A DNA stretch of 64,000 nt from IMG/VR virus record IMGVR_UViG_3300028797_000113, one strand, 5' to 3'. Every line of letters begins with the position of its first letter. The stretch's first letter is position 1. Origin of the DNA: a virus (Duplodnaviria; Heunggongvirae; Uroviricota; Caudoviricetes). The translations under genes were made by a program, and so were the position numbers. The notes under the pieces are model-generated. The model saw nothing but the letters and a program-made list of their open reading frames with translations. It had not been told where the DNA came from and searched no databases. This document shows positions 17,572 through 64,000 of this stretch, in pieces.

Positions 17572-17648
17572 CTCGCATAAGAGTTTTGGCTTTCTTCTTA
17601 TGCGACTAGCATCACCTCCTTTGATGCATAAAAGTATTGTTTACTCGT

Positions 17649-18110: not shown

Positions 18111-18181
18111 AAGGACGTAGTTCAATGGTAGAACATCGGTCTCTAAAACTGACAATGTGTGTTCGACTCACACCGTTCTTG
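18111..18181 (+). tRNA. amber suppressor tRNA (anticodon CTA, reads UAG)
   Basis: Canonical cloverleaf: acceptor AAGGACG/CGTTCTT, D arm GTTC-AATGGTA-GAAC, anticodon stem TCGGT/ACTGA with loop CTCTAAA (T33, CTA, A37), T arm GTGTG-TTCGACT-CACAC. Confidence 0.75.
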
Positions 18182-18331: not shown

Positions 18332-18403
18332 TGGGCTGTCGCCAAGCGGTAAGGCAACGGGTTTTGATCCCGTCATTCGCTGGTTCAAATCCAGCCAGTC
18401 CAG
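18332..18403 (+). tRNA. tRNA-Gln (anticodon TTG)
   Basis: TGGGCTG TC GCC-AAGCGGTAA-GGC A ACGGG-TTTTGAT-CCCGT CATTC GCTGG-TTCAAAT-CCAGC CAGTCCA G; nearly colinear with E. coli tRNA-Gln. Confidence 0.85.
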
Positions 18404-18438
18404 TACATTATTAAATTATATTTCAAAGGAGGAATATT

Positions 18439-46236: not shown

Positions 46237-46400
46237 GTTTTGTAGAAGATTTAATTTCTGAAATGAACAAAGTCAAAGTCTATGACGTAGTAGACAATGA
46301 CAAGCCTATCAAAACGATAGAATGTAGTGTCGTATGCGACATCATCACGGTACTTTTAGACAAGTACGGAATTGGGGTGGACAATGATTTACATGGATAA
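46233..46400 (+). CDS. hypothetical small protein (55 aa, not in ORF track)
   Basis: ATG overlapping upstream stop; overlaps the NifS-like start. Confidence 0.3.
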   Translation: MSFVEDLISEMNKVKVYDVVDNDKPIKTIECSVVCDIITVLLDKYGIGVDNDLHG

Positions 46401-47484
46401 TGCAGCCACCAATATGGGCAACATAGGAATTTTTAATATTAACAGTCCGTATGCGGACAATAGTGAATTTGAAAACGCAAGAAAGCGCATAGCAAATTGT
46501 TTGAGATTAAAAGTAGAAAATATTTATTTTACTTCCGGCGGTTGTGAAGCAAACTCGTGGGCATTGCAAAGATGCGGTTGCAAAACAATTATTACAACCA
46601 AAATCGAGCATCCCTCTGTACTGAAATGTTGTGAGTGGTTAAGTAAGAACGGATATAATGTCATTTATCTTGACGTTGACAGATATGGCAGGATTGATGT
46701 GCTTGAACTTGACCGAACTTTATCGAAGATTACATTAGCGCCTACGCTCGTTTCGATTATGGCAGTCAATAATGAGATAGGTACGGTTCAAGACTTGAAG
46801 GCCATTAGAAAAGTTATTGATTATCACAACGAATTACGACAAAGAGCAAGTACAGAAACGGGAACCAATTTCTGTGAGCCTATTTATTTTCACTCGGATT
46901 GTGTACAAGCAATAGGACATTTAAAACTTCCTTACGACTGTTTGGATATGTTCTCTGCTTCGGGCCATAAATTTGGTTTTAATTTCGGTGTTGGCTTTTT
47001 ATATAGCCGAATCCCCATTCAGCCATTGATATTCGGTGGTTCACAAGAGAAAGGCTTAAGGGGAGGCACATCAAATGCAAAAGCCGTAATCGAAATGGCA
47101 GACAGCCTGACAGACAACTACCAAAACGGCAAGAGACTTCGCAAGGATGAAGAGCTTGTTGCGTACTTAAGGACATCCCTTCAGAAATTCGACGTAGTAT
47201 TTAATACTCCACCGCATTGTTTATCAAGTATATTATCTGTTTCTTTTAAAAATATTGATTCAGAAAAATTAATGATGTTCTTAAAGGATTTCGACATATT
47301 TGTTTCAGCAGGCAGTGCTTGTGCCGCGGATCACAAAGAACCATCACACGTACTCAAGGCTATCGGAGTTCCTAAAGATTATATCCACGGAACAATCCGT
47401 TTCTCGCTTTCGTCAAAACTTACTTCAAAAGAAGATATTGACCAAGTGATGAGCCTAATAAAACAGTTTTTGGAGAATCAATAA
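46384..47484 (+). CDS. cysteine desulfurase (NifS/IscS-like, class-V aminotransferase)
   Basis: IYMDNAATN start, SASGHKFGFNFGVGFLY PLP-lysine motif, C-terminal SAGSACAA active-site Cys loop. Confidence 0.8.
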   Translation: MIYMDNAATNMGNIGIFNINSPYADNSEFENARKRIANCLRLKVENIYFTSGGCEANSWALQRCGCKTIITTKIEHPSVLKCCEWLSKNGYNVIYLDVDRYGRIDVLELDRTLSKITLAPTLVSIMAVNNEIGTVQDLKAIRKVIDYHNELRQRASTETGTNFCEPIYFHSDCVQAIGHLKLPYDCLDMFSASGHKFGFNFGVGFLYSRIPIQPLIFGGSQEKGLRGGTSNAKAVIEMADSLTDNYQNGKRLRKDEELVAYLRTSLQKFDVVFNTPPHCLSSILSVSFKNIDSEKLMMFLKDFDIFVSAGSACAADHKEPSHVLKAIGVPKDYIHGTIRFSLSSKLTSKEDIDQVMSLIKQFLENQ

Positions 47485-48170
47485 TGAAAAGAATTGACAA
47501 ATTTAATCTCGTCTTACACGAAATACAATCCATCTTAACAATTATATTTCTTTTCTTGGGTGGGTTGTTCTTCACATTAGAGATAACAATGCTTATCCAA
47601 ATGGATAAACAAGAGCAACCGATAGTGATAGACGAGACAGAAGAAGTCATTGAAGAAATCGTTGTCGACGAACCAGTAGTGGTAAATATACCTCCTACAA
47701 GAGAAGAATTAATGTTCGAAGACTTCGAAGCATTGACTCAGATTGAGGATAAAAAGGACTGGTATCTGGCTTACAAAGGTTTTCTCGAAGACTATCCTGA
47801 GTTTGATAGAGGTTCGTCTCTTTATGACAGATACAACGATGAAGAAATTTATATGATGCAACGCGTTATCGAAACAGAAGTCTACGGTTGTGACTTCGAC
47901 GCGAAAGCAAATGTTGCAAGTGTAATTTTAAATCGAATTGAAGGGGATAATAATTTCCCCGATGATGCAATAACAGTTTGTACCGCTCCCGGTCAGTTTG
48001 TTTACTCAAGAAAACAAATATCAGAAGACACTCAACTTGCTTTAGAGTACGCTGCTGAAATTGAAGACACCACAAATGGAGCCTTGTATTTTAACAGTAT
48101 GGCACCTATGGATTCATGGAATGGTCGAACAAGGATTTTTACGGACCACGTAGGTCATTCATTCTACTAA
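47484..48170 (+). CDS. SleB-type cell-wall hydrolase (Hydrolase_2) with N-terminal TM anchor
   Basis: TM ILTIIFLFLGGLFFTL; NVASVILNRIEGDNNFPDDAITVCTAPGQFVYS matches the SleB/CwlJ catalytic region. Confidence 0.7.
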   Translation: MKRIDKFNLVLHEIQSILTIIFLFLGGLFFTLEITMLIQMDKQEQPIVIDETEEVIEEIVVDEPVVVNIPPTREELMFEDFEALTQIEDKKDWYLAYKGFLEDYPEFDRGSSLYDRYNDEEIYMMQRVIETEVYGCDFDAKANVASVILNRIEGDNNFPDDAITVCTAPGQFVYSRKQISEDTQLALEYAAEIEDTTNGALYFNSMAPMDSWNGRTRIFTDHVGHSFY

Positions 48171-49020: not shown

Positions 49021-49343
49021 ATTTTAAAATGCTTAATTATTCAGAGGAACGCTTAAAGAATTTAAGATTTCACAGAGTGTTAGATTCCCCTGAAATGTTT
49101 TATATTAAGTTTCCAGTAGACTTATTGACTGCGAGGATTGTTGTAAATACAAAAAACGGCGAAGTCAATTGTTATTTATACGGACAAACTGGAGAATTAT
49201 ATCAGGCATTCTTTACGCATAGCACCAATACCGATAGTTATATTTTTAAAATCAACAAATTATATGTTGAAGAATTGAAGAAGTTTGGAATAAAGGAGAT
49301 AGAAAATGGCAAACACAGCAAAAAGAGAATGGAAACAGAGTGA
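48990..49343 (+). CDS. hypothetical protein
   Basis: 117 aa. Confidence 0.5.
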   Translation: MQYGDRIPELNFKMLNYSEERLKNLRFHRVLDSPEMFYIKFPVDLLTARIVVNTKNGEVNCYLYGQTGELYQAFFTHSTNTDSYIFKINKLYVEELKKFGIKEIENGKHSKKRMETE

Positions 49344-49932
49344 TTTCAGATTAAACAAAAAGGGCAAGCCTTTTCTCGTAAGAGAAGACAGGTCAGGCTA
49401 TCAGCCTACGGAAGTTAAACGCAAAGAAGAAATAGACAAACCCAAGAAAACAGATTTCGAAATCATAAGGAGAGAACAAATGGATGTAACGTATGCAGTA
49501 TTAAAATTCAAGAAACTTAAGGATGACGCAGAATTGCCGATGAAACCTACATTCGGCAGCGCGGGATATGATGTTATCGCTTGTGCGGATGAAATTATCA
49601 CCATTCAGCCCGGAGAAACAGTAATGATTCCCACTGGTCTTACGGCATCCTTCAGGAAAGAATTTGTCGGCCTGCTCTATTCAAAGGACACTATGGCTAC
49701 TAAATACGGTCTTGTTATTGCTCAGGGCGTTGCAGTCATAGATTCAGACTGTCGCACTGAATGGAAAGTCCCGATCAAGAATATATCTGACAAGCCTCAA
49801 TTAATTCGTTCTGGCGACAGAATTGCTCAGTTATTGGTACAGCCCGTATGTAGAGTGAAGATGTTTGAAGTAGATGACTTAAACCGCACTCATTATAACA
49901 GATACAACGGAGGCGAAAATGAAGATGAGTAA
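49306..49932 (+). CDS. dut: dUTP diphosphatase (possibly with N-terminal extension; alternative start 49480)
   Basis: PTFGSAGYDV motif 3, LIRSGDRIAQL motif; strong SD at both 49306 and 49480. Confidence 0.8.
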   Translation: MANTAKREWKQSDFRLNKKGKPFLVREDRSGYQPTEVKRKEEIDKPKKTDFEIIRREQMDVTYAVLKFKKLKDDAELPMKPTFGSAGYDVIACADEIITIQPGETVMIPTGLTASFRKEFVGLLYSKDTMATKYGLVIAQGVAVIDSDCRTEWKVPIKNISDKPQLIRSGDRIAQLLVQPVCRVKMFEVDDLNRTHYNRYNGGENEDE

Positions 49933-50352: not shown

Positions 50353-50535
50353 ATGGAGCGCGTCGTATATAAATTGGGAGACTGGGTTGAATATATTCGT
50401 CGACACTACGTGGTCGAACGTCCTGAACCCGTAATTACTCACGAAGAAGGTGTTGTCACGAATATTTTCAGACACAAAAGAATAAAAGCAAAAAATCCCC
50501 CGAGAAATCGGGGGTATTTTTTTAATAGTGAATGA
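50353..50535 (+). CDS. possible small ORF (60 aa) running into the terminator
   Basis: ATG 3 nt after previous stop, weak SD; overlaps the 3' end of the convergent gene. Confidence 0.25.
   Translation: MERVVYKLGDWVEYIRRHYVVERPEPVITHEEGVVTNIFRHKRIKAKNPPRNRGYFFNSE
50497..50523. terminator. bidirectional rho-independent terminator between convergent blocks
   Basis: CCCCCGA-gaaa-TCGGGGG then TATTTTTTT on + strand; A/T runs on both sides. Confidence 0.7.
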
Positions 50536-52432
50536 TTTCATAGAAGTACCAGTCGGTGTCTTCTTCACACGTTGCATTGGGATAGTCTTTATAATAGACC
50601 GCTTCATGCCAGATGTATTCGTCTTGGAAACGATAATGGAATAATCCACCGTGATTATATTGTGGCCAATAAGGTTCATCTTGCATAACATCTTTAGCGG
50701 ATTTATATGACTCATAAGTCGTATATTCCAGACCGCCTAAGATGCCTCTGATTGCACTATACTGCCAATAGGATTCATCACACACATCGTTGGGTATTCT
50801 AAAATAACCAATAGGTATTCCAAAATCAAATGATTGCCAATCTTCATGCGACCAAGGGAGGTCGTCATAATGAACTCCGCTTGGTGTTTTGCCCGCAGTA
50901 TCAACCGCGTTGGCTAACGAAATAACGCCACTTGAATAATTATTGTGAGTAAGTACGTTTACATTAATAATTTTGGTGTATTGAAATGCCTGACTATATG
51001 CCCAAGCATTAATGGTGCTTGGAATGATGGCTTCATCCATATATAAATTATGACAATAACAACATATTCCTCCACATTCAGTGACACCTTCGGGAATGGT
51101 AACGGGGAAATTATAGTTTTTGCAACCGTTAAACATATTGGTGACGTGTTGAACCGAAGAAGGTATCACGATGTTACGATTCAGATTCTCGCATCCGAAA
51201 AACATCCCCTCAGTATCTAAACAACCAGACGGTATCACAATATCTTGATTGAGATTATAACAACCAGAAAAGCAATTGCTCAATATTTTTACAGTGGAAG
51301 GTATTCGGATATTCTGGTCCAAATTAGTACACGACGCAAATGTTCCTCTCATCTCAATTAACCCTTCAGGGAAAGATATATTCTGATTAAATCTCATATA
51401 ACAAGAAGCAAAGGTTTGATATGCAAATTTCAAGTGGCTTGGCATTTGTACGTTCTGATTAAAATAACCACAACTGGTAAACGTACCGCTTAATGACTCG
51501 ATATTGTCATCAAAAGTTATGGGGGCATTTAAACCATTGCATCCCATAAATATATATCCTCCGTCAGTATTAATTTCAGCTGTATCTCCATAGTAATTAT
51601 AGTTTACAAAATACTCATAGTCAGAATAATAATTACTCGGATAGTAAGGCACATAAAAGGGCTGATCGAGGCTATAGCAATAAGATAACATTCCAGTCAA
51701 AATTGAATTGCAGGGTATCTTTATCGGTTGGTCTAAATTCGTGCAGTGATAAAACATACACGTGGCATCAACATTATTAGGCACCTTGATATTCTGATTT
51801 AAGTTTTCACAGTAATAAAACATATAATAGCAATTATTTGCCCCGTCTGGTATTTTGATATTTTGATTCAGATTATAGCAATAGTAAAAACACTGATAGA
51901 AATTTACAACGCTACTCGGGAATTGTATGTTTTGATTCAGCCTATAATCGTACTCAAATGCCCATGGCATATCTATCGGCGACACACCCATAAAGATAAC
52001 ATTGCCGTTGAAGTTATGCCAATCCCTAAATGCCCACGCAAAATTACCAGCACCATAACCGCCATTGCCATTACTATAGACATAGATATTGGCATTGTAA
52101 TAACAGCCATCGCCTATCAGTCCATACCAGTAATTACAACTTGCGGGTATGTTAAGGTCTTGACTAAAATTATTAGCGTGAGTAAACATATTTTGCATCG
52201 TCTCGATGTGGCTACTGTATGGACTGATATGTACAGGCGAATTAAAATTCACGCAATCATAGAACATACCGTACGCATTGTTAACCTCATCAGGAATTGT
52301 AAACGGCGCATTATAATTATTTAGGTCATTAAACATATATGACGCATTATTATTTTTAATTCCTACACCACTTCCCAATGATATAGAAAAGGGAACATCC
52401 AAGTCCCTGAAATCATTAAATAACATTCCCAT
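50522..52432 (-). CDS. BspA-type leucine-rich-repeat (LRR_5-like) fibre / receptor-binding protein
   Basis: 636 aa made almost entirely of about 23-aa repeats of form IPxxVxxxxxMFxxCxNLNQxIxIP; N-terminus paralogous to the 53083 ORF. Confidence 0.65.
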   Translation of the reverse strand: MGMLFNDFRDLDVPFSISLGSGVGIKNNNASYMFNDLNNYNAPFTIPDEVNNAYGMFYDCVNFNSPVHISPYSSHIETMQNMFTHANNFSQDLNIPASCNYWYGLIGDGCYYNANIYVYSNGNGGYGAGNFAWAFRDWHNFNGNVIFMGVSPIDMPWAFEYDYRLNQNIQFPSSVVNFYQCFYYCYNLNQNIKIPDGANNCYYMFYYCENLNQNIKVPNNVDATCMFYHCTNLDQPIKIPCNSILTGMLSYCYSLDQPFYVPYYPSNYYSDYEYFVNYNYYGDTAEINTDGGYIFMGCNGLNAPITFDDNIESLSGTFTSCGYFNQNVQMPSHLKFAYQTFASCYMRFNQNISFPEGLIEMRGTFASCTNLDQNIRIPSTVKILSNCFSGCYNLNQDIVIPSGCLDTEGMFFGCENLNRNIVIPSSVQHVTNMFNGCKNYNFPVTIPEGVTECGGICCYCHNLYMDEAIIPSTINAWAYSQAFQYTKIINVNVLTHNNYSSGVISLANAVDTAGKTPSGVHYDDLPWSHEDWQSFDFGIPIGYFRIPNDVCDESYWQYSAIRGILGGLEYTTYESYKSAKDVMQDEPYWPQYNHGGLFHYRFQDEYIWHEAVYYKDYPNATCEEDTDWYFYEIIHY

Positions 52433-52446
52433 TTGAATGCTCCTTT

Positions 52447-53070
52447 CTATTCATAATATTCGTTGTCTAACATTACAGGATAACCTAATAACGTCGACGG
52501 TATGGTTACATCATAGTTGCCAAAGTAGGCGTGCCAATCCGCTGCTTTAATCTTTGTAATATACAGCACATCGTTCTCAATGTAATATTCAAAGAACCTT
52601 GTGTAATCAAAGGCGTCTCTCTTATACCATATTCCAGACATCTTCAAAATAGATATTTCATAAATCGAATTAGGTTCGAAGGTGGGCGGGCCGTTAAGCC
52701 ACGACAGGCTTCTTTGAGATGTCTCGGGATATTTTAAGAATGTAACCTGAGGCACGGATTCGCCAAAGGTCAACACGAAATATGTGTGACCTTCAGCACG
52801 AACACGCAATACGGTGCTTTCTGTAATTGTCATATAATGCAAGGAAGACTCTCTCGCCATAATCTCGTCAATCGCATCCTGAGTGTTGGTTGCATCCAGT
52901 TTCTCGTTGGAAACCGTGATACGAGTAGCGGTAAGATTATCAAATACTTGCTGTTGAACATCGGGATATGCAGCGTCGAGTTTTTCCATATTCTCGTTAT
53001 GCGTATCCAAGTTCCAATACTTACTTCCCAGAGGAAGTCTTAAATTCAAATTAGGTGTGTAATTAGCCAT
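52447..53070 (-). CDS. fibre-associated adaptor protein (fused A+B form)
   Basis: N-terminus MANYTPNLNLRLP paralogous to the 55977 ORF; C-terminus ...WHAYFGNYDVTIPSTLLGYPV paralogous to the end of the 55231 ORF; TAG stop. Confidence 0.55.
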   Translation of the reverse strand: MANYTPNLNLRLPLGSKYWNLDTHNENMEKLDAAYPDVQQQVFDNLTATRITVSNEKLDATNTQDAIDEIMARESSLHYMTITESTVLRVRAEGHTYFVLTFGESVPQVTFLKYPETSQRSLSWLNGPPTFEPNSIYEISILKMSGIWYKRDAFDYTRFFEYYIENDVLYITKIKAADWHAYFGNYDVTIPSTLLGYPVMLDNEYYE

Positions 53071-53082
53071 AAAACTTCCTCC

Positions 53083-55215
53083 TTAAATAAAGTTAAGTAA
53101 GCAAGTATATTTAGGAGGGACTTCAGAGCCGGGAGCAAGATTTGCCCAATCCCAATATAAATATACTATGCAGTTATTCGTGCCTGTATATGTTCCAGCC
53201 CAACTAAAGTACGGAGTTCCATTAGAGTTAAAATTCTGAACGTAGTCTTGATAATTACAAGGACCCCAGATGCCTCGGAAATTTCCTGAAACATATCCAT
53301 CGCTTGCTCCAAAGAGCCAAGCGGCATTGGATGGACTCGGTCCTCCTGCTCCTTCTATTGTGTGAAAACAAATCTCAACATTGTATTCGTAATTATAGGT
53401 TCGGTAAGGGTAATAAGTTTGCGTAAAATTATACCATACCGTTGCATTATTGAGCATATTAATATGAAACAATGTGTCTCCATAAGATACCACACGACCA
53501 TATTCATCACACTGAGCTGGGGTTAAGCCAGTTACATCAGGACTATAAAGCAATGGGTCTCTACGTGGTATAGGTTTGAAAAGACCACCATTAACCAAGT
53601 CATAAAAATCCAATACGTCTGCCTGTATGGTTATGTTTCGTATTTTTGTGTTCTGGCACGCACGGAAAATTCGGTTACAATTAGGACCAAACACAACTTC
53701 GGGAATATGCAAATTGCAAGAATTTAAAAATACATTTCTGGCATTGCGAAGATTAGTAAGAGGCAGTGTAATGTGCTGATTTAAATTTCCACAGTTCTCA
53801 AACATTCCGTTGACTTCTATAACAGATTCTGGTATCTGAATGTTTTGGTTGAGACTGTGACAATTTTGGAACATATTTACGCATCGCTCCAAAGTGCTTG
53901 GCAATCCAATATTCTGGTTGAAAGCATCACAATATGAAAACATATAGGAACTGTCTATTAAATTCGCACTTAAATGTATATTCTGATTGAGATTATCGCA
54001 ATCATAAAAACAAGAGGTTGCATACGTGACAGTGTCTGGTATATAAATATTTTGGTCAAGACTCGAACAATGAGAAAACGCCGAGTACATTTGTTCTACT
54101 CCCACTGGTATTTGCAAATTTTGATTGAATCTTGAGCAATAACTGAAAGTTCCTTCCATCCTTTTTAACGAACTCGGTAATGTTAACAATGTATTAAAAT
54201 TATAACAACTGCTAAAGGTAGATTGCATAACCTCTACAGTGCTCGGCAATCCGATAACACAATTCAGATTGATACAATCTTCAAAAGTTGCCCATAAATT
54301 CTCAACGCCTTCAGGAAATGAAATAGGGTAATTGAAATTACGACAGTTCCCTAATACTGAACCAATACCTAACCATCCTGATTCAAACACAACATCTGAA
54401 TTAAAACTCGGACATGATGAAAACAATCCATTGGAGTTCCAAATGTGGTCAAATGAACTACTACCCCTGCACACAGGAACAAAAAACGGCTTATTCAAAT
54501 TAATACAATTAGCGAACATATAAGTAATTTCCGAATTGCGAGGAATCGGAACGGTCACATTAAGATTTCCACAATAACAAAAACAATCAGCAGCGTTGAT
54601 GTTATCTGGCATATGGATTGCTTGATTAAAATTACTGCATCCATAAAAACAACTATACATACAATTAACAGTATCTGGAATTTGTATATTTCGATTCAAG
54701 TTGTTACAACCATAAAACGCAGATGCCATATTCTGAGGATGAGTACCATCCATAAAACGAATATCGCCATTAAATCCACTCATATAAGAAAAGGCATAAC
54801 TGTAGTTGTTAGGCTCTCCAGTTCCAGTAGTCGCATACACATTTACATTGGCGGTATAATTGCTACAGCCGTTTAATATATAACCATATGCTATTGCGCT
54901 CTCAGGAATATTTATGTCTTGATTGAAGTTAATACAATTAGAGAACATATAGTTCAATGCTCGCAAATTCTGATGATGTGGGTCTATAGATATAGGTGCA
55001 TTAAGATTTTGACATTCATAAAACATATCCATCGAAGACATAACACAATCGGGAACAGCAAACGGAGCATTGTAGTTTCTGCAATTCGCAAAAATCCACT
55101 CTGCTCTATTGGAAACTATATGCGATTGGTAATCATAATAACCAGTAAACCCGACATTGCTTCCCAGATTCATAGAGAAACTATCTTGATTTAAGTTATC
55201 AATAAAATAGCCCAT
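53083..55215 (-). CDS. BspA-type leucine-rich-repeat fibre / receptor-binding protein
   Basis: 710 aa; repeats such as QNIQIPESVIEVNGMFENCGNLNQHITLP. Confidence 0.65.
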   Translation of the reverse strand: MGYFIDNLNQDSFSMNLGSNVGFTGYYDYQSHIVSNRAEWIFANCRNYNAPFAVPDCVMSSMDMFYECQNLNAPISIDPHHQNLRALNYMFSNCINFNQDINIPESAIAYGYILNGCSNYTANVNVYATTGTGEPNNYSYAFSYMSGFNGDIRFMDGTHPQNMASAFYGCNNLNRNIQIPDTVNCMYSCFYGCSNFNQAIHMPDNINAADCFCYCGNLNVTVPIPRNSEITYMFANCINLNKPFFVPVCRGSSSFDHIWNSNGLFSSCPSFNSDVVFESGWLGIGSVLGNCRNFNYPISFPEGVENLWATFEDCINLNCVIGLPSTVEVMQSTFSSCYNFNTLLTLPSSLKRMEGTFSYCSRFNQNLQIPVGVEQMYSAFSHCSSLDQNIYIPDTVTYATSCFYDCDNLNQNIHLSANLIDSSYMFSYCDAFNQNIGLPSTLERCVNMFQNCHSLNQNIQIPESVIEVNGMFENCGNLNQHITLPLTNLRNARNVFLNSCNLHIPEVVFGPNCNRIFRACQNTKIRNITIQADVLDFYDLVNGGLFKPIPRRDPLLYSPDVTGLTPAQCDEYGRVVSYGDTLFHINMLNNATVWYNFTQTYYPYRTYNYEYNVEICFHTIEGAGGPSPSNAAWLFGASDGYVSGNFRGIWGPCNYQDYVQNFNSNGTPYFSWAGTYTGTNNCIVYLYWDWANLAPGSEVPPKYTCLLNFI

Positions 55216-55230
55216 AGTTAGTCCTCCTTT

Positions 55231-55977
55231 CTACCAGTCCCACATATCTGTGACTATCACAACAGGATAGCCATCTAGTGTGTCTGGAATATAAATATCT
55301 AAATTGCCAAAAGCCGCCAACCATTCATCTCTTTTAACAGACGTCACCCACGCCTTGCCTTCTTCGATAGTGTAATTAAAGAAGTTTTCATAAGCGGGAG
55401 GCATAACCAATTGAAGAAGCCTTCGTCTTAACAGATTGAGTTGCGCGCTCATTAGTTTGTCAGGGTTGAACACGGGAACAGGAGGTGGCGTACCGTAGTT
55501 AATAGCATTCTCAATTCCAGTTCCGTTTGTTTTGTAAGCGGTTAATTCTGCATTTGTTTCAAATATCGGGATATTCGTCGATAAAATGCACTGGTCCATT
55601 GTCTTGACCAAGTCTTTCCAACAATACACATTTGCAGGCAACGCCGAACAATTATCTCGCGTGACTAACGTAATAGCGCTGTAGCTTGCCGGACTTGAGC
55701 CTTCTCTATTTTGAGTATAGATTCTGGGATTGCTTATAAACGCACCTCTTTGTATAATTTCTTGCATTGAAAATCCCAGTCGGCCAGTTATAGTACCACT
55801 CACCGTGTCGCATTGTGACATACTATAATCGTCATCATATTCTCTCATTTTATAACGAAAATACACCCGAGGATCGTTAATGTAATCCTCGCCTGTACAA
55901 AGAAATTCATCCGTGGATACGGTTATGGTGCTACTGTAACCACACCCTGTGGTTACTGAATAATCAAAATGAGCCAT
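55231..55977 (-). CDS. fibre-associated protein (B part)
   Basis: 248 aa; C-terminus DEWLAAFGNLDIYIPDTLDGYPVV; ends TAG, in frame with downstream ATG. Confidence 0.55.
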   Translation of the reverse strand: MAHFDYSVTTGCGYSSTITVSTDEFLCTGEDYINDPRVYFRYKMREYDDDYSMSQCDTVSGTITGRLGFSMQEIIQRGAFISNPRIYTQNREGSSPASYSAITLVTRDNCSALPANVYCWKDLVKTMDQCILSTNIPIFETNAELTAYKTNGTGIENAINYGTPPPVPVFNPDKLMSAQLNLLRRRLLQLVMPPAYENFFNYTIEEGKAWVTSVKRDEWLAAFGNLDIYIPDTLDGYPVVIVTDMWDW

Positions 55978-56453
55978 TATCTTCTCTTAAACCACATACA
56001 GTCTAACCTTAAGAAAGACAATTCATAAGTCGAGTTAGGCTGAAATGATGGATGTCCTCCTTCCCATCTAAAATCTATACCCGAATCGGGCAATGACTGA
56101 ACAAAGTTTACAGTCGGTACAGTTTCACCAAAATGCAAAATTAAATATATGTGCGCCCACGTAGCGATAGTCAGCGTAATATTCTGGTCTACATAAACCT
56201 CATAGGTGTTACCGTCTATGAGAGTGCCAGCCAAACTGTCGACCGCTTCCTGTACGTTGGTCGCATCTAATTCACTCGCGGTGTTGTCATATCTAATCAT
56301 GACCGCCGGGATGGGCGACGAACCGCCTTGCGGATCGGTAAGCAATGCGTACGCATCATCGAGAATACGCATATTTCTATTCCAAGTGCTGATATTAAAG
56401 TTTTCTGATTCTGCGGGTAATATTAACCCTAAGTTCGGACTTGTCTTTGCCAT
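55977..56453 (-). CDS. fibre-associated adaptor protein (A part)
   Basis: MAKTSPNLGLILPAESENFNISTWNRNMRILDDAY paralogous to the N-terminus of the 52447 ORF. Confidence 0.55.
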   Translation of the reverse strand: MAKTSPNLGLILPAESENFNISTWNRNMRILDDAYALLTDPQGGSSPIPAVMIRYDNTASELDATNVQEAVDSLAGTLIDGNTYEVYVDQNITLTIATWAHIYLILHFGETVPTVNFVQSLPDSGIDFRWEGGHPSFQPNSTYELSFLRLDCMWFKRR

Positions 56454-56482: not shown

Positions 56483-56510
56483 TAAAACAAAAAGAGAGCC
56501 GAAGCTCTCT
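56483..56510 (-). terminator. rho-independent terminator (minus strand)
   Basis: AGAGAGC-ttcg-GCTCTCT followed by TTTTTGTTTT on the minus strand. Confidence 0.55.
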
Positions 56511-56895: not shown

Positions 56896-57336
56896 TCAAG
56901 CGGTTCTCGTAATACGAACGGAACCATTATTTACGTTGATTGTCGGTGTGGGGGTTGCTTCTTCTGACACGTAGCGCACCGCTACGGTGAAACAACAACC
57001 GCGAGGGACTGTTATCGAAGTTGTACTGGTCAAATTTCCAAGGGTGTCTACATCAATGGGTGAATAGGTAGCAATACTTTCTTCCTTTACTTCTCCATTT
57101 TCCGTAATTCCAATCGAGATAGGCACTGCATCAGCAGCGTCTTCGGGGATTGAAACATTACCATTGAAAGTGACAATATATCTTGCGAAACAGTTATTTG
57201 TGATTCCTCTGAGAATAAAAATTCCTGAACCATCTTCGTGATAAATACCACCATTGGTACAAGGAATAGATGCGTTAAACGGAATGGCGCTATTTAAAGC
57301 GACACTGACCGGGTTATTAGCAATATATTCTGCCAT
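56896..57336 (-). CDS. beta-rich structural protein (possible fibre tip or exosporium-like domain)
   Basis: 146 aa, Thr/Ser/Asn/Gly/Ile-rich, CC pair. Confidence 0.45.
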   Translation of the reverse strand: MAEYIANNPVSVALNSAIPFNASIPCTNGGIYHEDGSGIFILRGITNNCFARYIVTFNGNVSIPEDAADAVPISIGITENGEVKEESIATYSPIDVDTLGNLTSTTSITVPRGCCFTVAVRYVSEEATPTPTINVNNGSVRITRTA

Positions 57337-57348
57337 AGGATCACCCCC

Positions 57349-58158
57349 CTACATACCACATCCACATCCACCGTTAGAACAGGAGAAGATATTTGTCTTT
57401 CCATATACGGGAACTGCGGGTACGGGACAGTTAGATAATCTTGTATATAAGTTATCTACAACATTATTCTGTGACTGAATAAGTTGTGCTGTTTGTGCAG
57501 TCTGTGATGCATTAAGGGTTGCCATATTAAGTTGTGTTCTGAGATTGTCATTCTCTCTCTTGAAACCGTCTAACTCCAAAGCACATAACTTGTCCAAAAT
57601 GGCCTGCGTATTAGCCGTATTACTTGCTATGATATTGCGAACGCCATCTGTGACCGCTGCCCTGTCTGCACAGTTTTCCGTTGCAACAGTATATTTCAGG
57701 TCTCCAATATTTGCTCTGTTTTCGCAGCAACAATTCTGAAGGCTCATTGCAAGTGTGTTTAACTGTCCTGAGAGTGCCTGACTATCTGCATATCTCTGGT
57801 TCATAGAAGCAATTTGATTGGTGTATGCGGTCTGCATAGCGTCCATTGCTCTGTTGCAATCTGATATCTCAGAAGTTGCAAAACCATTAGAGATTGATGT
57901 TTGAATGCCATTTAACTGGCTTGAAATACTTGCGGTATCAAAGCCTCTGTTAACGTCATTCTGGGTTGCTGTATTCCACATATAAGGAAGAACGCCTTCG
58001 TTACCGCCAAAGCCACCGCCGAATCCGTTACCCCATCCACCCATCAGAGCGAAAAGGAAAAGAATTACAAACCAGCCGCCGAAGCCGTCGCCGAAACCAC
58101 CGTTACTACCACACATAGGAGATACAGGCATAATCATGTTTTGATTGTCTGATAACAT
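57349..58158 (-). CDS. Gly/Cys-rich membrane protein
   Basis: GGFGDGFGGWFVILFLFALMGGWGNGFGGGFGG, NCCCENR, C-terminal CSNGGCGCGM; Gln/Asn/Thr-rich coiled middle. Confidence 0.5.
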   Translation of the reverse strand: MLSDNQNMIMPVSPMCGSNGGFGDGFGGWFVILFLFALMGGWGNGFGGGFGGNEGVLPYMWNTATQNDVNRGFDTASISSQLNGIQTSISNGFATSEISDCNRAMDAMQTAYTNQIASMNQRYADSQALSGQLNTLAMSLQNCCCENRANIGDLKYTVATENCADRAAVTDGVRNIIASNTANTQAILDKLCALELDGFKRENDNLRTQLNMATLNASQTAQTAQLIQSQNNVVDNLYTRLSNCPVPAVPVYGKTNIFSCSNGGCGCGM

Positions 58159-60443: not shown

Positions 60444-63400
60444 TTAGTTACCTCCATTTAACATTGCTTTTATTTGTGCGAGTTCGTTCTTTAACTCGGC
60501 AAGTTCGGTTTTTAACTCAGTAAGTTCTTCTTGCTGAAGTTGAATTGTTTTAATGGCAGGCGCCATAAATTCTTCATAACGCAAACCATAACGATATTCT
60601 CCTTCAACAGGCATATCGTCTTTAATAGATACACCATTTTCTTCTCTCATATATGGAACTGTCTTTTGGTCTTTACAGAAACCGCCAAAGTCCTTGGCAG
60701 TCATTCCAAGTTCTGCCATTTCTTCTTCAACGTCTTGAGCGATCATACCATAGTGAGTTCTATCAGACTTGCCGTTGATATACTTATATGATACGGGGTT
60801 GAGTGCCATGATGAAATCTCTTGCAGATTCATCAAGCGGCTTAATATCTTTTTTCTCATTGCGGTCCGATGTGGAAATGGCTGAATTGGTTGAGTATATT
60901 TGTCCCCAACGGTAGTTAGGTCCGCCTAATAGTATGCCATAAGCCGTGGCACCGTCTGATTCAGGTGCAAGTGCCCAATATGCACTACTACCATTTTTTC
61001 TTACACCAAAAATAACAGCAAAGTTGGCCTCATTTGACGCTCTCAAATACAAGAGCTGACTTGACGGTGCCTCTATCATGCCATTGGTAGTGGTATTAAG
61101 TATTAACCTATGCAGACCGGGGTTAAAAATTAACTCTCCAAAGCGCACTTGAGATGTATCTTCACTATTATTTGCATTATAACTATATAAAACTCTATAA
61201 TTTGCACTTGTAGAAGTGCTATTTCTTTTAACTTGATTATCGTGAGTGACATAACCCGGACCATTTGTAAGTTGATTAAGATTAGTTAAATTGCCGTTGT
61301 CAAAGAATGTTCCCGTTGTTTGGACCGTATAGCCATTAGTAGATTTGCCTTGCACGATGGCATATTGCATATGTATGCTGCTATCGTTAGGTAAAAATAA
61401 AGCATATAAACCTATATCATAACTTCCATTATTTGGTGCATTTTGAGACATCATAATAACTCTTGTCCAAGTGTTTGCCGTAATACCAACGCCAATGTTG
61501 GCAGTAATTTTAATTATACCGCTGAAACTTCTGCCATTACCTCTGCTTAAAAGATTTACGAAATCATTAAGAGAAGCGACCTCTAAACCAATATAGCAAG
61601 GAAAGGTTCTCTCCATTAGAGCCAATGTAGAATCAACACCAGTAGTAGGTAAAGTATATAGTCTGTCTGAATTATTTTCGGCGGGTAAAATATAATTGGC
61701 TTTACCGTTTGCAGCAAATAAGTTTATGATACCACGCACAGCACCAGCAGTACCATCTGCTATGCTATTACCACACCAAAGACCAGAATCTACGCTTGTA
61801 GTAGAGGTATGTTCTTTTGCTATTTGCATATAGCCATCATTTGGATTAACGCCAAAACAGTGATTTATACCTACAGGTTGGTCTTTATATCCGGACAACA
61901 GTGCCAAATACATCAGTCCCGATGAACCTGAAAGTCCATATACATATACTTTATTTGTAACAGAACTTATATATCCGTTTGAATATAAACCGATATTACT
62001 TGCATAACTCGAATAATCAATATAATTTTCAGCACTTGCTCCGGTCCATTCTGACCATTTAACTGGTGTATTTAATAATGTAACAGAACAGTTTTCACAT
62101 CTAAAAATATCTACTATTATAGTTCTATAATTTTCTGGACCATAATTACCTGCATTAATGAGTATTCCTATTGCTTGTCCATAACCTGCTGTATAACCCA
62201 CAGATGTCACTCTTCTAGGGATAATTCGATAATGTGAAAATGAAACTGCTTGATAGTTTCTTGAGCACCCCTCAATTGGAGTCTGTGCATCAGTCTGACT
62301 AATCTCCATCAAAGTATCTGTTCTCTGTTCAGGGTTATTAGCACAATATGACAAAACTCTACATTTAACACTCCAAGAAGCTCCATAACTATCTGGTCTA
62401 ACAGACATAAAATACCAGCCTTGCGTATCCGCATCCCCCGACACAACATATACATTAGTGCCGTTATATTCTTTATGAACGAGCGCCGTTTCTATTCCAT
62501 GGTTCCAGTCATACTTTTCTCCAGTTGTTACCAACGATACAGCCGTACCACTTTCTGCTTCTTGTTCGGAAGTATAAGTTGTATCTGTTGCAGATATAGT
62601 AATCTTATCATTAGTTGCATCTGGCGTAAGAGTTACATTACTTCCAGCAACTAATTCAAGCGTATCTGTTTTACTGTCTGCCTGAATAGTTGTGCTACCT
62701 ACTTTAACATTAGAGAAAGCGTTTTGGTTTACTTCTCCACCTATAGACATATCAACCAAACTTGTGCCGTTATATTTGAACCAAGTGTTCTGTTCATACA
62801 ATGTCGCACGTACGTTAGATGTTGTACTATCATATGCACCACCAACTAATACATAAACTTTGGTTGTATCGTTGGGCGTTTGAGTCCACCACACTTGGTC
62901 AAGGTAATATAAACCGTCTGTGACGTTGATGGTTCCCACTAAATAGATAGGAGCGTAAGGTGTTAAAGAACCAGATGCTCTTGTCGTATTAAATGCATAA
63001 CGTGTATCAAAGATACTTATTGAACTATATACCACATTCTGACCAGCGATATTGGTGTTAGCATTATAATTTGTATTACAGTACCAGATAGAACTACCTA
63101 CTTTAAAACCGTGACTATTTGCTATCTTAGTTGTTCCAGCCGTTCTATTATCTGCCGTAACCGTTCCATCAGATGCCGTACATATACTTTGATATGTTCC
63201 ATTTATATCTTCCATAAACAGACCAGCATTCCACACGCCAACGGCACCTGTCTTGCCAGAAAAGTAAGCAATTCTGTTTTCTGTAACAGTATTGGCATCA
63301 CCAGTCTCTTGCAGACCTCTATCAATCGCATTGAAGTAAGACAGGCTTCCGTAGTTAGTAGTTCCAGTACCAGTCCAGTCTGTCCATTTCACTGGCGTAT

Positions 63401-64000
63401 CAAGAATGGTAACAGTACAATTTTCACATTCATAATAATCTAATTCGAATGTTCTATAATAACTTGCCGTCGTTGGTTTATCTCCATTATAAAAACTAAT
63501 ACCGATGGCGTGACCATACCCAGCCGTATATCCAGCAGATTTCAAAGGATGGTAGGGGATATAAGTGTGTGCTTTATTATATCTTTCATTCCAGTCACAA
63601 TAGATTAATCCATCAGCACGACCACTTGCCGTTACATAAGTAATAGAGTCGTACGTTGCATCGGCAGGGCAATAACTACGAATTTTGAATTTTACTCTCC
63701 AAGGCTTCTGCCACGTATCAGGTCTTACAGACATAAAATACCAAGAGGTATTAGCCCAATCATTTGCAGTACCATAATAACTCGTACTTGCATAGGTTTT
63801 GCTTATCAAAGGCTTGAGGTCACCATAATGCTGAGCAAAATCTTCGAACGTACCTTTCGGTGTTAACGCCTTATTAGTTGTACTTCCGTCAAATGACACG
63901 GAAGTTCTTGCAACTTTGTTGCTATCTGAACTATCTGTAACAACAAGTTTATCTCCACTGGCTACTGTAATATCATTTGTCTGCAAAGCACCACCATTAG
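60444..64000 (-). CDS. large tail fibre / tailspike protein with C-terminal S74 intramolecular-chaperone domain (5' end outside window)
   Basis: ORF open to window edge; internal duplicated about 140-aa domain; C-terminus SDRNEKKDIKPL...YGMIAQDVEE plus coiled coil ELTELKTELAELKNELAQIK typical of endosialidase-type chaperone domains. Confidence 0.7.
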   Translation of the reverse strand, partial: NGGALQTNDITVASGDKLVVTDSSDSNKVARTSVSFDGSTTNKALTPKGTFEDFAQHYGDLKPLISKTYASTSYYGTANDWANTSWYFMSVRPDTWQKPWRVKFKIRSYCPADATYDSITYVTASGRADGLIYCDWNERYNKAHTYIPYHPLKSAGYTAGYGHAIGISFYNGDKPTTASYYRTFELDYYECENCTVTILDTPVKWTDWTGTGTTNYGSLSYFNAIDRGLQETGDANTVTENRIAYFSGKTGAVGVWNAGLFMEDINGTYQSICTASDGTVTADNRTAGTTKIANSHGFKVGSSIWYCNTNYNANTNIAGQNVVYSSISIFDTRYAFNTTRASGSLTPYAPIYLVGTINVTDGLYYLDQVWWTQTPNDTTKVYVLVGGAYDSTTSNVRATLYEQNTWFKYNGTSLVDMSIGGEVNQNAFSNVKVGSTTIQADSKTDTLELVAGSNVTLTPDATNDKITISATDTTYTSEQEAESGTAVSLVTTGEKYDWNHGIETALVHKEYNGTNVYVVSGDADTQGWYFMSVRPDSYGASWSVKCRVLSYCANNPEQRTDTLMEISQTDAQTPIEGCSRNYQAVSFSHYRIIPRRVTSVGYTAGYGQAIGILINAGNYGPENYRTIIVDIFRCENCSVTLLNTPVKWSEWTGASAENYIDYSSYASNIGLYSNGYISSVTNKVYVYGLSGSSGLMYLALLSGYKDQPVGINHCFGVNPNDGYMQIAKEHTSTTSVDSGLWCGNSIADGTAGAVRGIINLFAANGKANYILPAENNSDRLYTLPTTGVDSTLALMERTFPCYIGLEVASLNDFVNLLSRGNGRSFSGIIKITANIGVGITANTWTRVIMMSQNAPNNGSYDIGLYALFLPNDSSIHMQYAIVQGKSTNGYTVQTTGTFFDNGNLTNLNQLTNGPGYVTHDNQVKRNSTSTSANYRVLYSYNANNSEDTSQVRFGELIFNPGLHRLILNTTTNGMIEAPSSQLLYLRASNEANFAVIFGVRKNGSSAYWALAPESDGATAYGILLGGPNYRWGQIYSTNSAISTSDRNEKKDIKPLDESARDFIMALNPVSYKYINGKSDRTHYGMIAQDVEEEMAELGMTAKDFGGFCKDQKTVPYMREENGVSIKDDMPVEGEYRYGLRYEEFMAPAIKTIQLQQEELTELKTELAELKNELAQIKAMLNGGN

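What the first reader, a model, noticed from the sequence alone, without database searches (positions are those of the whole stretch)
50522..56453. Duplicated and rearranged receptor-binding cassette built from BspA-type leucine-rich repeats
Two paralogous cassettes lie head-to-tail on the minus strand. Cassette 1 is A (158 aa) + B (248 aa) + LRR fibre (710 aa). Cassette 2 is an A–B fusion (207 aa: N-terminus paralogous to A, C-terminus paralogous to the end of B) + LRR fibre (636 aa). The fibre proteins are about 25-28 tandem copies of a 23-aa IPxxVxxxxxMFxxCxNLNQxI unit. LRR_5/BspA repeats are adhesins in Bacteroidetes and Treponema and are unusual as phage fibres. The duplication, with fusion in one copy and fission in the other, suggests recent host-range diversification. 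The longer large fibre with an S74 chaperone domain lies upstream.
Basis: seen in the sequence. Interest (0 to 1): 0.6.

Follow-up and report, generated by a model that had tools for sequence, protein, structure and literature searches.

The report
Two-part leucine-rich-repeat phage tail fibres
An uncultured ~130-kb phage carries two old, paralogous gene sets that most likely build tail fibres whose host-binding tips are leucine-rich-repeat (DUF285/BspA-type) proteins encoded separately from their anchor proteins; this tip type is rare in phages, but the locus is otherwise an ordinary modular fibre locus.

Summary
Five minus-strand genes, A 158 aa, B 248 aa, LRR1 710 aa, AB 207 aa and LRR2 636 aa, form one unit between two terminator-like hairpins. 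Paralogy is real: LRR1/LRR2 E=1e-80, A/AB E=4e-30, B-end/AB-end E=4e-12. Both large proteins are DUF285/LRR_5 solenoids by Pfam, and LRR1 also by AlphaFold plus Foldseek.

Corrections:
- There are about 17-19 recognisable 23-aa units per protein, not 25-28.
- Each LRR protein ends in a non-repeat domain of about 170-200 aa, and the two domains are unrelated.
- The duplication is old, not recent. All 11 distinct related loci keep both A-type genes, and paralogues are 29-45% identical against 38-98% for orthologues.
- "Fusion/fission" is better described as module shuffling. An anchor domain A is joined to a ~55-aa C-terminal module (Cmod) either directly (AB) or on a separate protein (B) that carries 0, 1 or 2 extra domains.

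Cmod resembles the N-terminal cap of bacterial LRR_5 proteins. It always ends its protein and always precedes an LRR gene. I infer multi-subunit fibres: anchor, adaptor, LRR tip.

Unexplained: the AB stop codon is TAG in 8 of 8 loci, and the phage encodes an amber-suppressor tRNA.

The parts
56493..56510 (-). Terminator-like hairpin (AGAGAGCTTCGGCTCTCT followed by a T-run), just upstream of the ribosome-binding site and ATG of gene A. It marks the upstream edge of the five-gene unit.
55977..56453 (-). Gene A (158 aa), an anchor domain on its own. It has the N-terminal motif M..SPNLGL.LP....N...WN.NM..LD, a long helix, and a beta-sandwich ending W.KR. Its stop overlaps the start of B (TAATG).
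   Evidence: The fold is inferred from the AB model.
55453..55976 (-). N-terminal accessory domain of B (about residues 1-172). It is absent in L001, L009 and L011, single in the window, L002, L004 and L005, and duplicated in L003. It ends with STNIPIF.T..EL..Y...G.GIE.AINY. No Pfam, PHROG or NCBIfam match.
55231..55452 (-). The conserved core of B: the helix SAQLNLLRRRL plus Cmod (FFNYTIEEGKAWVTSVKRDEWLAAFGNLDIYIPDTLDGYPVVIV). It ends in TAG, followed by AAAGGAGG and then, 15 nt later and in frame, the ATG of LRR1.
53083..55215 (-). LRR1 (710 aa). It has a conserved N-terminal segment, about 18-19 DUF285-type 23-aa repeats (residues 42-506; nt about 53698-55092), a low-confidence linker (490-511), and a beta-rich type-1 C-terminal domain (512-710; nt 53086-53682). 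No signal peptide or wall anchor is visible.
52447..53070 (-). AB (207 aa): an A-type anchor domain (residues 1-151, nt 52618-53070) fused directly to Cmod (residues 152-207, nt 52450-52617). Its stop codon is TAG in 8 of 8 loci that have AB plus an LRR gene.
50522..52432 (-). LRR2 (636 aa): about 16-17 DUF285-type repeats (residues 31-463, nt about 51044-52342) plus a type-2 C-terminal domain (nt 50525-51043). Against L001 the repeat region is only 47-70% identical in DNA, while the C-terminal end is 100% identical, so this gene is a mosaic.
50497..50514 (.). Bidirectional intrinsic-terminator-like hairpin (CCCCCGATTTCTCGGGGG followed by a T-run) between the converging gene blocks. It marks the end of the unit.
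60444..64000 (-). Upstream large tail fibre with a Peptidase_S74 chaperone domain. It is cut by the window end and is 1584 aa in full. This is context, not part of the cassette.
18111..18181 (+). tRNA with anticodon CUA (amber suppressor). It may be relevant because B and AB both end in TAG. The link is not established.

Best explanation
The locus most likely encodes two paralogous, non-covalently assembled tail-fibre (receptor-binding) sets of an uncultured ~130-kb phage of a Gram-positive host. The host may be a rumen or gut Lachnospiraceae member.

Each set has three functional modules:
1. An ~150-aa anchor domain (A or A2) of the type found at the N-termini of phage tail fibres. It would fix the fibre to the tail or baseplate.
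2. A ~55-aa C-terminal adaptor module (Cmod) that looks like the N-terminal cap and first turn of bacterial LRR_5 surface proteins.
3. A separately translated DUF285/PARCEL leucine-rich-repeat solenoid with its own C-terminal domain. This would form the distal, host-binding part.

In set 2 the anchor and Cmod are one protein (AB). In set 1 they are two proteins: A, and B, which is a helix plus Cmod with optional extra domains. I propose that Cmod docks on the conserved N-terminal end of the LRR protein and so continues the solenoid.

Shown here: the gene anatomy, the paralogy, the LRR fold, the conservation and variation among relatives, and the strict Cmod/LRR co-occurrence. Inferred: presence in the virion, the Cmod-LRR docking, and receptor binding by the LRR surface.
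For: Anatomy:
- The five genes are tightly packed, each with its own Shine-Dalgarno site, between two terminator-like hairpins.

Position:
- The unit lies at the end of the tail block. In the same phage, 338-aa and 486-aa proteins, an 803-aa LamG protein and a 1584-aa S74 fibre precede it.

Anchor domain:
- The AlphaFold model of AB has pLDDT 78.
- Ten BFVD Foldseek hits at E<=1e-3 include proteins named tail protein, tail fiber protein, H-type lectin protein and YadA-domain protein.
- In an unrelated temperate element (L094), an A-type gene follows tail and tail-fibre-like genes.
- One A2 orthologue carries a different 170-aa C-terminal domain in place of Cmod plus LRR (P0018). This is classic fibre modularity.

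Cmod:
- Its motif matches the N-terminus of the bacterial LRR_5 protein P0119.
- It lies at the extreme C-terminus in all 17 representative clusters that contain it.
- Cmod and a downstream LRR gene are both present or both absent in 20 of 20 cassette slots across 10 loci.

LRR proteins:
- Pfam DUF285/LRR_5.
- The AlphaFold model of LRR1 has pLDDT 84.
- Its best PDB matches are LRR_5 surface proteins of gut bacteria: 4gt6 at 6.6e-7 and 4fs7 at 9.5e-7.

Diversification:
- Against L001, the LRR2 repeat region is 47-70% identical, while flanking parts are 96-100% identical.
Against: - There is no direct evidence that any of the five proteins is in the virion.
- A, B and AB match no Pfam, PHROG or NCBIfam family.
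- The Cmod/LRR_5-cap similarity is short and is not detected by Pfam.
- Cmod and the LRR gene are adjacent, so their joint loss could come from single deletions rather than functional coupling.
- The co-variation test was uninformative.
- LRR solenoids are usually monomeric, unlike typical trimeric fibres.
- The unit is separated from the S74 fibre by a conserved block of about 8 small genes that includes a GerE/sigma-like regulator, and it is preceded by a terminator-like hairpin.
Confidence: 0.6

Rival explanations
1. Same fibre function, but adaptor and LRR are joined covalently in part of the product. The phage's own amber-suppressor tRNA would read through the TAG stop of B or AB and give an adaptor-LRR fusion: 964 aa for B-LRR1 in this window, about 850 aa for AB-LRR2 in most relatives. 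The unfused proteins would be made as well.
For: - A tRNA with anticodon CUA at 18111-18181 scores 63.9 bits against Rfam tRNA with all stems intact.
- AB ends in TAG in 8 of 8 loci, although A, LRR1 and LRR2 always end in TAA and TAG ends only 8 of 67 ORFs of at least 100 aa in the window.
- The AB-TAG-12 nt-ATG junction is in frame and open in 6 of 8 loci. The B-TAG-15 nt-ATG junction is in frame in the window and in L001.
Against: - Each LRR gene has its own strong ribosome-binding site.
- The window's AB/LRR2 junction (14-nt gap) and that of L003 (13-nt gap) are out of frame.
- B ends in TAA in 6 of 8 loci.
- The TAA-terminated LRR1-to-AB junction is also in frame in 8 of the 9 loci that carry an LRR1 gene, so spacers of 9 or 12 nt alone explain many in-frame cases.
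- The large late genes have no internal TAG.
- I could not show that relatives carry the suppressor tRNA.
Confidence: 0.12
2. The LRR proteins are on the virion but are not host-receptor binders. They would be decoration fibres on the head, collar or tail that stick the particle to other surfaces, such as plant fibre, mucus, biofilm or non-host cells, in the way Ig-like decoration domains are thought to act.
For: - BspA/LRR_5 and DUF285 proteins are adhesins or surface proteins in bacteria; this is family knowledge rather than something tested here. The closest solved structures are such surface proteins.
- A separate S74 fibre and an 803-aa LamG protein are already available as classical receptor binders.
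- DUF285 proteins are packaged in particles of the giant virus AaV with unknown role (PMC7507832).
Against: - The LRR regions turn over quickly and are mosaic among close relatives, and the distal modules are swapped. This is what is expected of host-range determinants.
- The anchor's best matches are mostly tail fibres and spikes.
Confidence: 0.13
3. The cassette is a moron or lysogenic-conversion locus. The LRR proteins would be exported to the bacterial surface as BspA-like adhesins and would not be assembled into virions.
For: - The unit is bracketed by terminator-like hairpins, as morons often are.
- One relative (L011) has an integrase just downstream.
- The LRR domain is typical of bacterial surface proteins.
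Against: - The sequences show no signal peptide, lipobox, LPXTG, SLH or cell-wall-binding repeats in LRR1 or LRR2, and Pfam finds only DUF285 and LRR_5.
- Each LRR gene is coupled to a fibre-like anchor or adaptor gene.
- The locus is in the same place in all relatives, most of which show no integrase in the stretches fetched.
Confidence: 0.07

Closest known systems
Modular, multi-gene tail-fibre and receptor-binding loci of phages with a conserved N-terminal anchor and exchangeable distal parts (for example T4 gp34-37, the branched tailspike sets of CBA120/G7C-type phages, and siphophage Dit/Tal/RBP modules; from my own knowledge of the field)
   Same: - A conserved anchor domain with variable distal modules.
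- Separate polypeptides chained end to end.
- Paralogous sets side by side.
- Mosaic recombination among relatives.
- Weak structural matches of the anchor to KP1 gp34-like and gp9 proteins and to the N-terminal part of CBA120 TSP4.
   Different: - The distal subunit is an LRR solenoid, not a trimeric beta-helix, a beta-sandwich head or a collagen-like fibre.
- The adaptor is an LRR-cap-like module.
- No sequence family is shared with those systems.
Pfam DUF285 (PF03382), also called the PARCEL repeat or TIGR02167, and LRR_5 (PF13306, BspA-type): bacterial and protist surface proteins such as TpLRR, PcpA, FAEPRAA2165_01021 and BACOVA_04585
   Same: - Pfam matches well above the curated cut-offs.
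- A 23-aa repeat with the F..C.NLNQ.I.IP signature.
- A predicted solenoid whose best PDB matches are these proteins.
- NCBIfam gives a partial hit to a Mycoplasma PARCEL lipoprotein model.
   Different: - No secretion signal or anchoring signal.
- Phage-encoded, and coupled to a fibre-type anchor.
- The N-terminal cap that is part of the same chain in bacterial LRR_5 proteins sits here on the preceding protein.
- Each protein has a unique C-terminal domain.
LRR and DUF285 proteins noted in large phages and giant viruses: Sphingomonas phage PAU gp103, Vibrio phage pir03 ORF287, Goslar DUF7941-LRR proteins, and AaV DUF285 proteins
   Same: - Virus-encoded DUF285 or LRR domains.
- In Goslar they were proposed, from predictions, to be host-recognition elements on an N-terminal assembly module (bioRxiv 10.64898/2026.04.21.720040).
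- In AaV two DUF285 proteins were found in virions (PMC7507832).
- PAU and other jumbo phages are the only INPHARED hits to LRR1.
   Different: - Identity is only 23-32% and is limited to the repeats.
- The anchors differ: DUF7941 in Goslar, the A domain here.
- Those are single-chain proteins rather than an adaptor plus an LRR subunit.
- None has a tested function.

Membership tests
Pfam DUF285 (PF03382) / PARCEL repeat proteins | A match to the family HMM above the curated gathering score (25 bits), in several tandem stretches | tested here: met
   LRR1 scores 133.9 bits (E 3.1e-39) in 7 stretches. LRR2 scores 82.4 bits (E 2.8e-23) in 3 stretches.
Pfam LRR_5 (PF13306, BspA-type LRR) | A match to the family HMM above the gathering score (27.7 bits) | tested here: met
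   LRR1 scores 80 bits and LRR2 61.1 bits. Both scores are lower than for DUF285, so DUF285 is the better label.
Leucine-rich-repeat solenoid fold | A curved solenoid of repeated beta-strand and loop units, closest in structure to solved LRR proteins | tested here: met
   The AlphaFold model has pLDDT 84, and above 90 over residues ~50-480. All Foldseek PDB hits at E<=0.1 are LRR proteins, led by 4gt6 and 4fs7. Only LRR1 was modelled.
BspA-like bacterial surface adhesins (functional class) | Export to and anchoring on the cell surface through a signal peptide, lipobox, Por/T9SS or wall anchor, together with binding to a host-tissue ligand | tested here: not met
   The sequences show no hydrophobic N-terminal signal and no anchoring domain, and Pfam and NCBIfam find none. 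Ligand binding cannot be tested here. I therefore do not file these proteins as BspA-like adhesins; they share only the repeat fold.
Phage tail fibre / receptor-binding protein | Being a virion tail component | not testable with these tools
   The support is indirect: position at the end of the tail and fibre block, and weak structural matches of the anchor to fibre N-termini.
Phage tail fibre / receptor-binding protein | A conserved N-terminal attachment part with a variable distal part among related phages | tested here: met
   The A and A2 domains are kept in all 11 distinct loci. The distal parts vary: LRR, an unrelated 170-aa domain, or none. The B insert is present in 0-2 copies, and the LRR2 repeat region is mosaic.
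Phage tail fibre / receptor-binding protein | Sequence membership in a known tail-fibre family (PHROG or Pfam) | tested here: not met
   A, B, AB, LRR1 and LRR2 have no PHROG hit at E<=0.01. A, B and AB have no Pfam or NCBIfam hit, and the AB family profile (alignment A2, which also contains A) has no PDB sequence relative; B and the LRR proteins were not searched against PDB sequences.
Stop-codon-recoded (TAG-reassigned) phage | Frequent in-frame TAG inside essential or late genes, plus a suppressor tRNA | tested here: not met
   A suppressor tRNA is present. However, the long genes are intact under the standard code: polymerase 1101 aa, S74 fibre 1584 aa, an 803-aa protein, and the 710-aa and 636-aa LRR proteins. 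TAG acts as a normal, if rarer, stop (8 of 67).

The most novel reading that the evidence does not exclude
The phage may build its host-binding fibres as a split leucine-rich-repeat solenoid. The N-terminal LRR cap sits on the anchor or adaptor protein, and the rest of the solenoid is a separate, exchangeable subunit that snaps onto it. The conserved TAG at the adaptor's end, read by the phage's own amber-suppressor tRNA, would set the ratio of covalently fused to free subunits. That would be a new plug-in principle for swapping receptor-binding modules, and a new use for a phage suppressor tRNA outside whole-genome recoding.
Probability: 0.1. Interest if true: 0.8.

Novelty: new variant of a known kind. 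Interest (0 to 1): 0.45.

Why it matters
If the reading is right, DUF285/PARCEL leucine-rich repeats, which have no tested function in any virus, would be the receptor-binding tips of a phage lineage from gut or rumen-type samples. That would add an LRR solenoid to the small set of folds phages use to recognise hosts.

The separate adaptor with an LRR-cap-like end suggests a simple plug-in interface. Such an interface could be used to engineer host range.

The locus also offers a natural series for testing which part sets specificity: 0-2 accessory domains, one or two LRR tips, and swapped repeat regions.

The conserved TAG stop, together with a phage amber-suppressor tRNA, is a small testable case of possible regulated readthrough in a phage that is otherwise not recoded.

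Tried and rejected
- **Readthrough or frameshift as a general rule for joining adaptor and LRR.** Rejected as a general rule because the frames and spacers differ among loci and every LRR gene has its own ribosome-binding site. I keep it only as a minor rival for the TAG junctions.
- **Pfam scan of Cmod, the B N-domain and both LRR C-terminal domains at E<=10.** Nothing meaningful.
- **PDB sequence search with the AB profile.** Nothing.
- **Co-variation of Cmod with the LRR N-terminus against controls.** All parts correlate alike (Spearman 0.58-0.78), so the test is uninformative. My guess that the L007 LRR has an LRR2-type N-terminus was wrong: it is slightly closer to LRR1.
- **Search for the CUA tRNA in relatives.**
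  - Loci fetched through the neighbouring 500-aa protein belong to a different ~80-kb phage group with no CUA tRNA.
  - An exact 24-nt search of IMG/VR found nothing.
- **Whole-genome TAG recoding.** Rejected.
- **Megablast of the locus against INPHARED.** No match. tblastn of AB also gave no match.
- **Host assignment.**
  - A 269-aa neighbouring protein is 45% identical to one in Butyrivibrio virus Ceridwen.
  - The polymerase is 36-38% identical to those of Bacillus Tsamsa-like phages.
  - The one genome hit is in a 'Ca. Absconditabacterales' MAG and may be a binning artefact.

Full report
**1. What is in the sequence**

| Gene | Coordinates | Length |
|---|---|---|
| A | 55977-56453 | 158 aa |
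| B | 55231-55977 | 248 aa |
| LRR1 | 53083-55215 | 710 aa |
| AB | 52447-53070 | 207 aa |
| LRR2 | 50522-52432 | 636 aa |

The junctions, read directly from the sequence, are:
- A/B overlap as TAATG.
- B ends in TAG, followed by AAAGGAGG and, 15 nt later, the ATG of LRR1.
- LRR1 ends in TAA, which overlaps GGAGG.
- AB ends in TAG, followed by AAAGGAG.
- LRR2 ends in TAA and is followed by CCCCCGATTTCTCGGGGG plus a T-run.

The consensus scan finds that hairpin at 50497-50514, on both strands, between the converging gene blocks. It finds a second terminator-like hairpin at 56493-56510, just upstream of A. The five genes therefore look like one unit with translational coupling.

**2. Paralogy and repeats**

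- LRR1 and LRR2 align collinearly over about 490 residues: 35% identity, E=1e-80. The alignment includes the non-repeat N-terminal segment and the two interruptions of the repeat array, so this is common descent and not just shared repeat composition.
- A aligns with residues 1-151 of AB: 36% identity, E=4e-30.
- B aligns with AB only over its last ~46 residues: 48% identity, E=4e-12.
- Pfam gives DUF285 (133.9 and 82.4 bits) and LRR_5 (80 and 61 bits) for the two large proteins. NCBIfam gives only a partial hit to a Mycoplasma 'PARCEL repeat' lipoprotein model. PARCEL is the published name for the DUF285/TIGR02167 repeat (PMC2996958).
- A 23-aa profile built from nine LRR1 units finds about 18-19 units in LRR1 (residues 42-506) and about 16-17 in LRR2 (residues 31-463). 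The LRR2 units were not used to build the profile.
- The last ~200 aa (LRR1) and ~170 aa (LRR2) are non-repeat domains with no Pfam match and no similarity to each other.

**3. Fold**

- The AlphaFold model of LRR1, made with 24 aligned sequences, has pLDDT 84 and pTM 0.77. Confidence is above 90 through about residues 50-480. A poorly defined linker covers 490-511, and a beta-rich C-terminal domain follows.
- All Foldseek hits in the PDB with E<=0.1 are LRR proteins. The best are LRR_5-type surface proteins of gut bacteria: 4gt6 from Faecalibacterium prausnitzii at 6.6e-7, and 4fs7 from Bacteroides ovatus at 9.5e-7. PcpA, 4h09 and TpLRR follow.

**4. The phage and the neighbourhood**

- The window belongs to a contig of 129,826 bp. 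There is no nucleotide match in INPHARED.
- The PolC-like polymerase is 36-38% identical to those of Bacillus Tsamsa-like phages. A neighbouring 269-aa protein is 45% identical to one in Butyrivibrio virus Ceridwen. The strong Shine-Dalgarno sites also point to a Gram-positive host. The host is not established.
- Upstream on the same strand, partly beyond the window, lie 338-aa and 486-aa proteins, an 803-aa protein with two LamG domains, and the S74 fibre. That fibre is 1584 aa in full; the window cuts it at 64000.
- A conserved block of about eight small genes, including a GerE/sigma-4-like regulator, separates the S74 fibre from the cassette.
- The cassette is the last unit of the minus-strand block.

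**5. Relatives**

Ten further distinct loci were read.

| Locus | A | B-type protein | LRR1 | Second A-type gene | Second LRR gene |
|---|---|---|---|---|---|
| window | 158 | 248 | 710 | AB 207 | 636 |
| L001 | 158 | 79 | 710 | AB 206 | 644 |
| L002 | 158 | 250 | 683 | AB 206 | 650 |
| L003 | 157 | 421 | 686 | AB 206 | 651 |
| L009 | 157 | 78 | 672 | AB 206 | 644 |
| L011 | 157 | 76 | 673 | AB 206 | 644 |
| L004 | 157 | 260 | 694 | 320 aa: A2 domain plus an unrelated 170-aa C-terminus | none |
| L005 | 157 | 262 | 728 | 153 aa: A2 domain alone | none |
| L010 | 157 | 210 (truncated, lacks Cmod) | none | AB 207 | 646 |
| L007 | 152 | 37 (remnant) | none | AB 196 | 520 |
| L095 | 152 | none | none | AB ~200 | 680 |

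Three points follow.

(i) Both A-type genes are kept in all 11 loci. A orthologues are 53-93% identical and A2 orthologues 38-98%, but A and A2 are only 29-45% identical to each other. The duplication therefore predates the divergence of the whole group. It is not recent.

(ii) B is built from three parts: 0, 1 or 2 copies of a ~170-aa domain ending STNIPIF...AINY, then a helix SAQLNLLRRRL, then a ~55-aa C-terminal module I call Cmod. The window's extra 172 residues, about 55453-55968, are simply absent from L001, which is 95-100% identical on the adjoining Cmod/LRR1 side and 78-90% identical through gene A.

(iii) Cmod and a downstream LRR gene are both present or both absent in 20 of 20 cassette slots across 10 loci: 16 with both, 4 with neither.

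In a profile search of 1.84 billion representative proteins the family is small, with 162 hits at E<=1e-3. In all 17 clusters that contain Cmod, it ends the protein. It never runs on into repeats in the same ORF.

**6. What the small proteins look like**

- The AlphaFold model of AB has pLDDT 78. It shows a long helix (21-45), a short helix, a beta-sandwich (76-151), and then a hairpin-helix-strand for Cmod.
- Foldseek against BFVD gives ten hits at E<=1e-3. Those with names are called tail protein, tail fiber protein, H-type lectin protein and YadA-domain protein. Collagen-repeat and Mtd-N proteins follow just below.
- The Cmod sequence FFNYTIEEGKAWVTSVK...GNLDIYIPDTLDGYPVVIV parallels the mature N-terminus of a bacterial LRR_5 protein, DYAYTVTDGKAQITGYTGVGGNVNIPSTLGGFPLTSIG (P0119). 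A Cmod profile hits such N-termini only weakly, and Pfam does not see it.
- In an unrelated temperate element (L094, 84-kb contig of a 'Ca. Absconditabacterales' MAG), an A-type gene directly follows tail and tail-fibre-like genes.

**7. Mechanism proposed**

- *Shown:* the anatomy, the paralogy, the LRR fold, the conserved anchor with variable distal parts, and the Cmod-LRR co-occurrence.
- *Inferred:*
  - A and A2 fix two fibre types to the tail.
  - Cmod, an LRR-cap-like end piece, docks on the conserved N-terminal segment of the separately made LRR protein.
  - The LRR surface, its C-terminal domain, or both bind the host.
- The mosaic pattern against L001 fits selection on specificity. 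The LRR2 repeat region is 47-70% identical in DNA, flanked by 96-100% identity.

**8. The TAG observation**

- ARAGORN and Rfam find a well-formed tRNA with anticodon CUA at 18111-18181, scoring 63.9 bits.
- The genome is not recoded. Long genes are intact under the standard code, and TAG ends 8 of 67 ORFs of at least 100 aa.
- AB nevertheless ends in TAG in 8 of 8 loci, while A, LRR1 and LRR2 always end in TAA. The AB/LRR2 junction is in frame in 6 of 8 loci. B/LRR1 is TAG and in frame in the window and in L001.
- Against a fusion role:
  - The window's own AB/LRR2 junction is out of frame.
  - B ends in TAA in 6 of 8 loci.
  - The TAA-ended LRR1/AB junction is in frame just as often.
- I leave this as unexplained, with regulated readthrough as a low-probability reading.

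**9. Comparison and verdict**

- The locus works like the modular, multi-gene fibre loci known from many phages. It is not a sequence member of any described fibre family.
- The large proteins are members of DUF285/LRR_5 by HMM and by fold. They lack the export and anchoring features of BspA-like adhesins.
- Virus-encoded DUF285 or LRR proteins have been noted before. Examples are PAU and other jumbo phages, pir03 (PMC7765460), the Goslar DUF7941-LRR proteins proposed as host-recognition elements, and AaV virion proteins (PMC7507832). None has a tested function, and none shows the split adaptor-plus-LRR layout.
- I rate this a new variant of a known kind, of moderate interest.

Noticed in passing
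window 18111-18181 (+), with tRNA-Asn 17499-17572 and tRNA-Gln 18331-18404: The phage encodes a well-formed amber-suppressor tRNA (anticodon CUA, Rfam tRNA 63.9 bits), although it does not appear to be TAG-recoded: long genes are intact under the standard code and TAG ends 8 of 67 ORFs of at least 100 aa.
   Followed up: partly
window 52447-52449 and 55231-55233; junctions in L001-L011: The AB gene ends in TAG in 8 of 8 related loci, while A, LRR1 and LRR2 always end in TAA. AB-TAG-12 nt-ATG(LRR2) is in frame in 6 of 8 loci. In the window, B-TAG-15 nt-ATG(LRR1) is in frame, giving a potential 964-aa readthrough product.
   Followed up: partly
window 56896-58158 (-): The 269-aa glycine-rich, probably membrane-associated protein (phrog_16490; 45% identical to a Butyrivibrio virus Ceridwen protein) also ends in TAG. 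It is in frame with the next 146-aa ORF (phrog_20016), giving a potential 420-aa readthrough product. The 146-aa gene is missing in L001 and L002.
   Followed up: no
window 55453-55968 (-); L003 5008-6273: The N-terminal ~170-aa domain of B has no family match and occurs in 0, 1 or 2 tandem copies among relatives. Each copy ends with STNIPIF.T..EL..Y...G.GIE.AINY. It may be an accessory binding domain.
   Followed up: partly
profile positions 35-85 of the AB alignment (window about 52816-52968); proteins P0149, P0157, P0163, P0237: The A-domain segment L.A..I.VSN..L.ATN.QDAIDEL matches as a tandem repeat, up to 27 times, in very large proteins (1640-2706 aa) elsewhere in the protein universe. 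It looks like a widespread fibre-shaft repeat.
   Followed up: no
window 46372-47484 (+), 47484-48170 (+), 49306-49932 (+): The early or middle block carries a class-V aminotransferase/NifS-like gene, a SleB-type cell-wall hydrolase (Hydrolase_2) directly after it, and a dUTPase. This trio is conserved in all relatives.
   Followed up: no
window 59407-60153 (-): A 248-aa protein with an N-terminal GerE/sigma-70 region-4-like HTH and an uncharacterised ~180-aa C-terminal part sits between the S74 fibre and the cassette in all relatives. It may be a late-gene regulator.
   Followed up: no
L013-L071 (about 7530-7610 in most), IMG/VR contigs of ~80 kb: In a distantly related phage group found through the 500-aa protein at window 15794-17296, the tRNA gene just downstream of that protein changes anticodon between contigs: Ser(tga), 'SeC'(tca, an opal suppressor), Thr(tgt) and Cys(aca). 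This suggests anticodon switching at one locus.
   Followed up: no
L005 16458-20462, L007 11671-14755, L009 3280-4821: Mobile insertions are present in relatives. The polymerase gene carries LAGLIDADG or intein signatures in L005 and L007, and an HNH endonuclease gene splits the homologue of the 269-aa gene in L009.
   Followed up: no
L011 9483-10685; L094 12648-13847: A tyrosine integrase lies just downstream of the cassette in one 97-kb relative, and next to an A-type gene in an 84-kb contig binned as 'Ca. Absconditabacterales'. Some carriers of the A domain may be temperate, or the bin may be contaminated.
   Followed up: no
L092 2815-5226 (same phage, beyond window end): An 803-aa protein with two Laminin_G_3 (concanavalin-like) domains lies directly upstream of the S74 fibre. 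The phage therefore has at least four candidate host-binding proteins.
   Followed up: no
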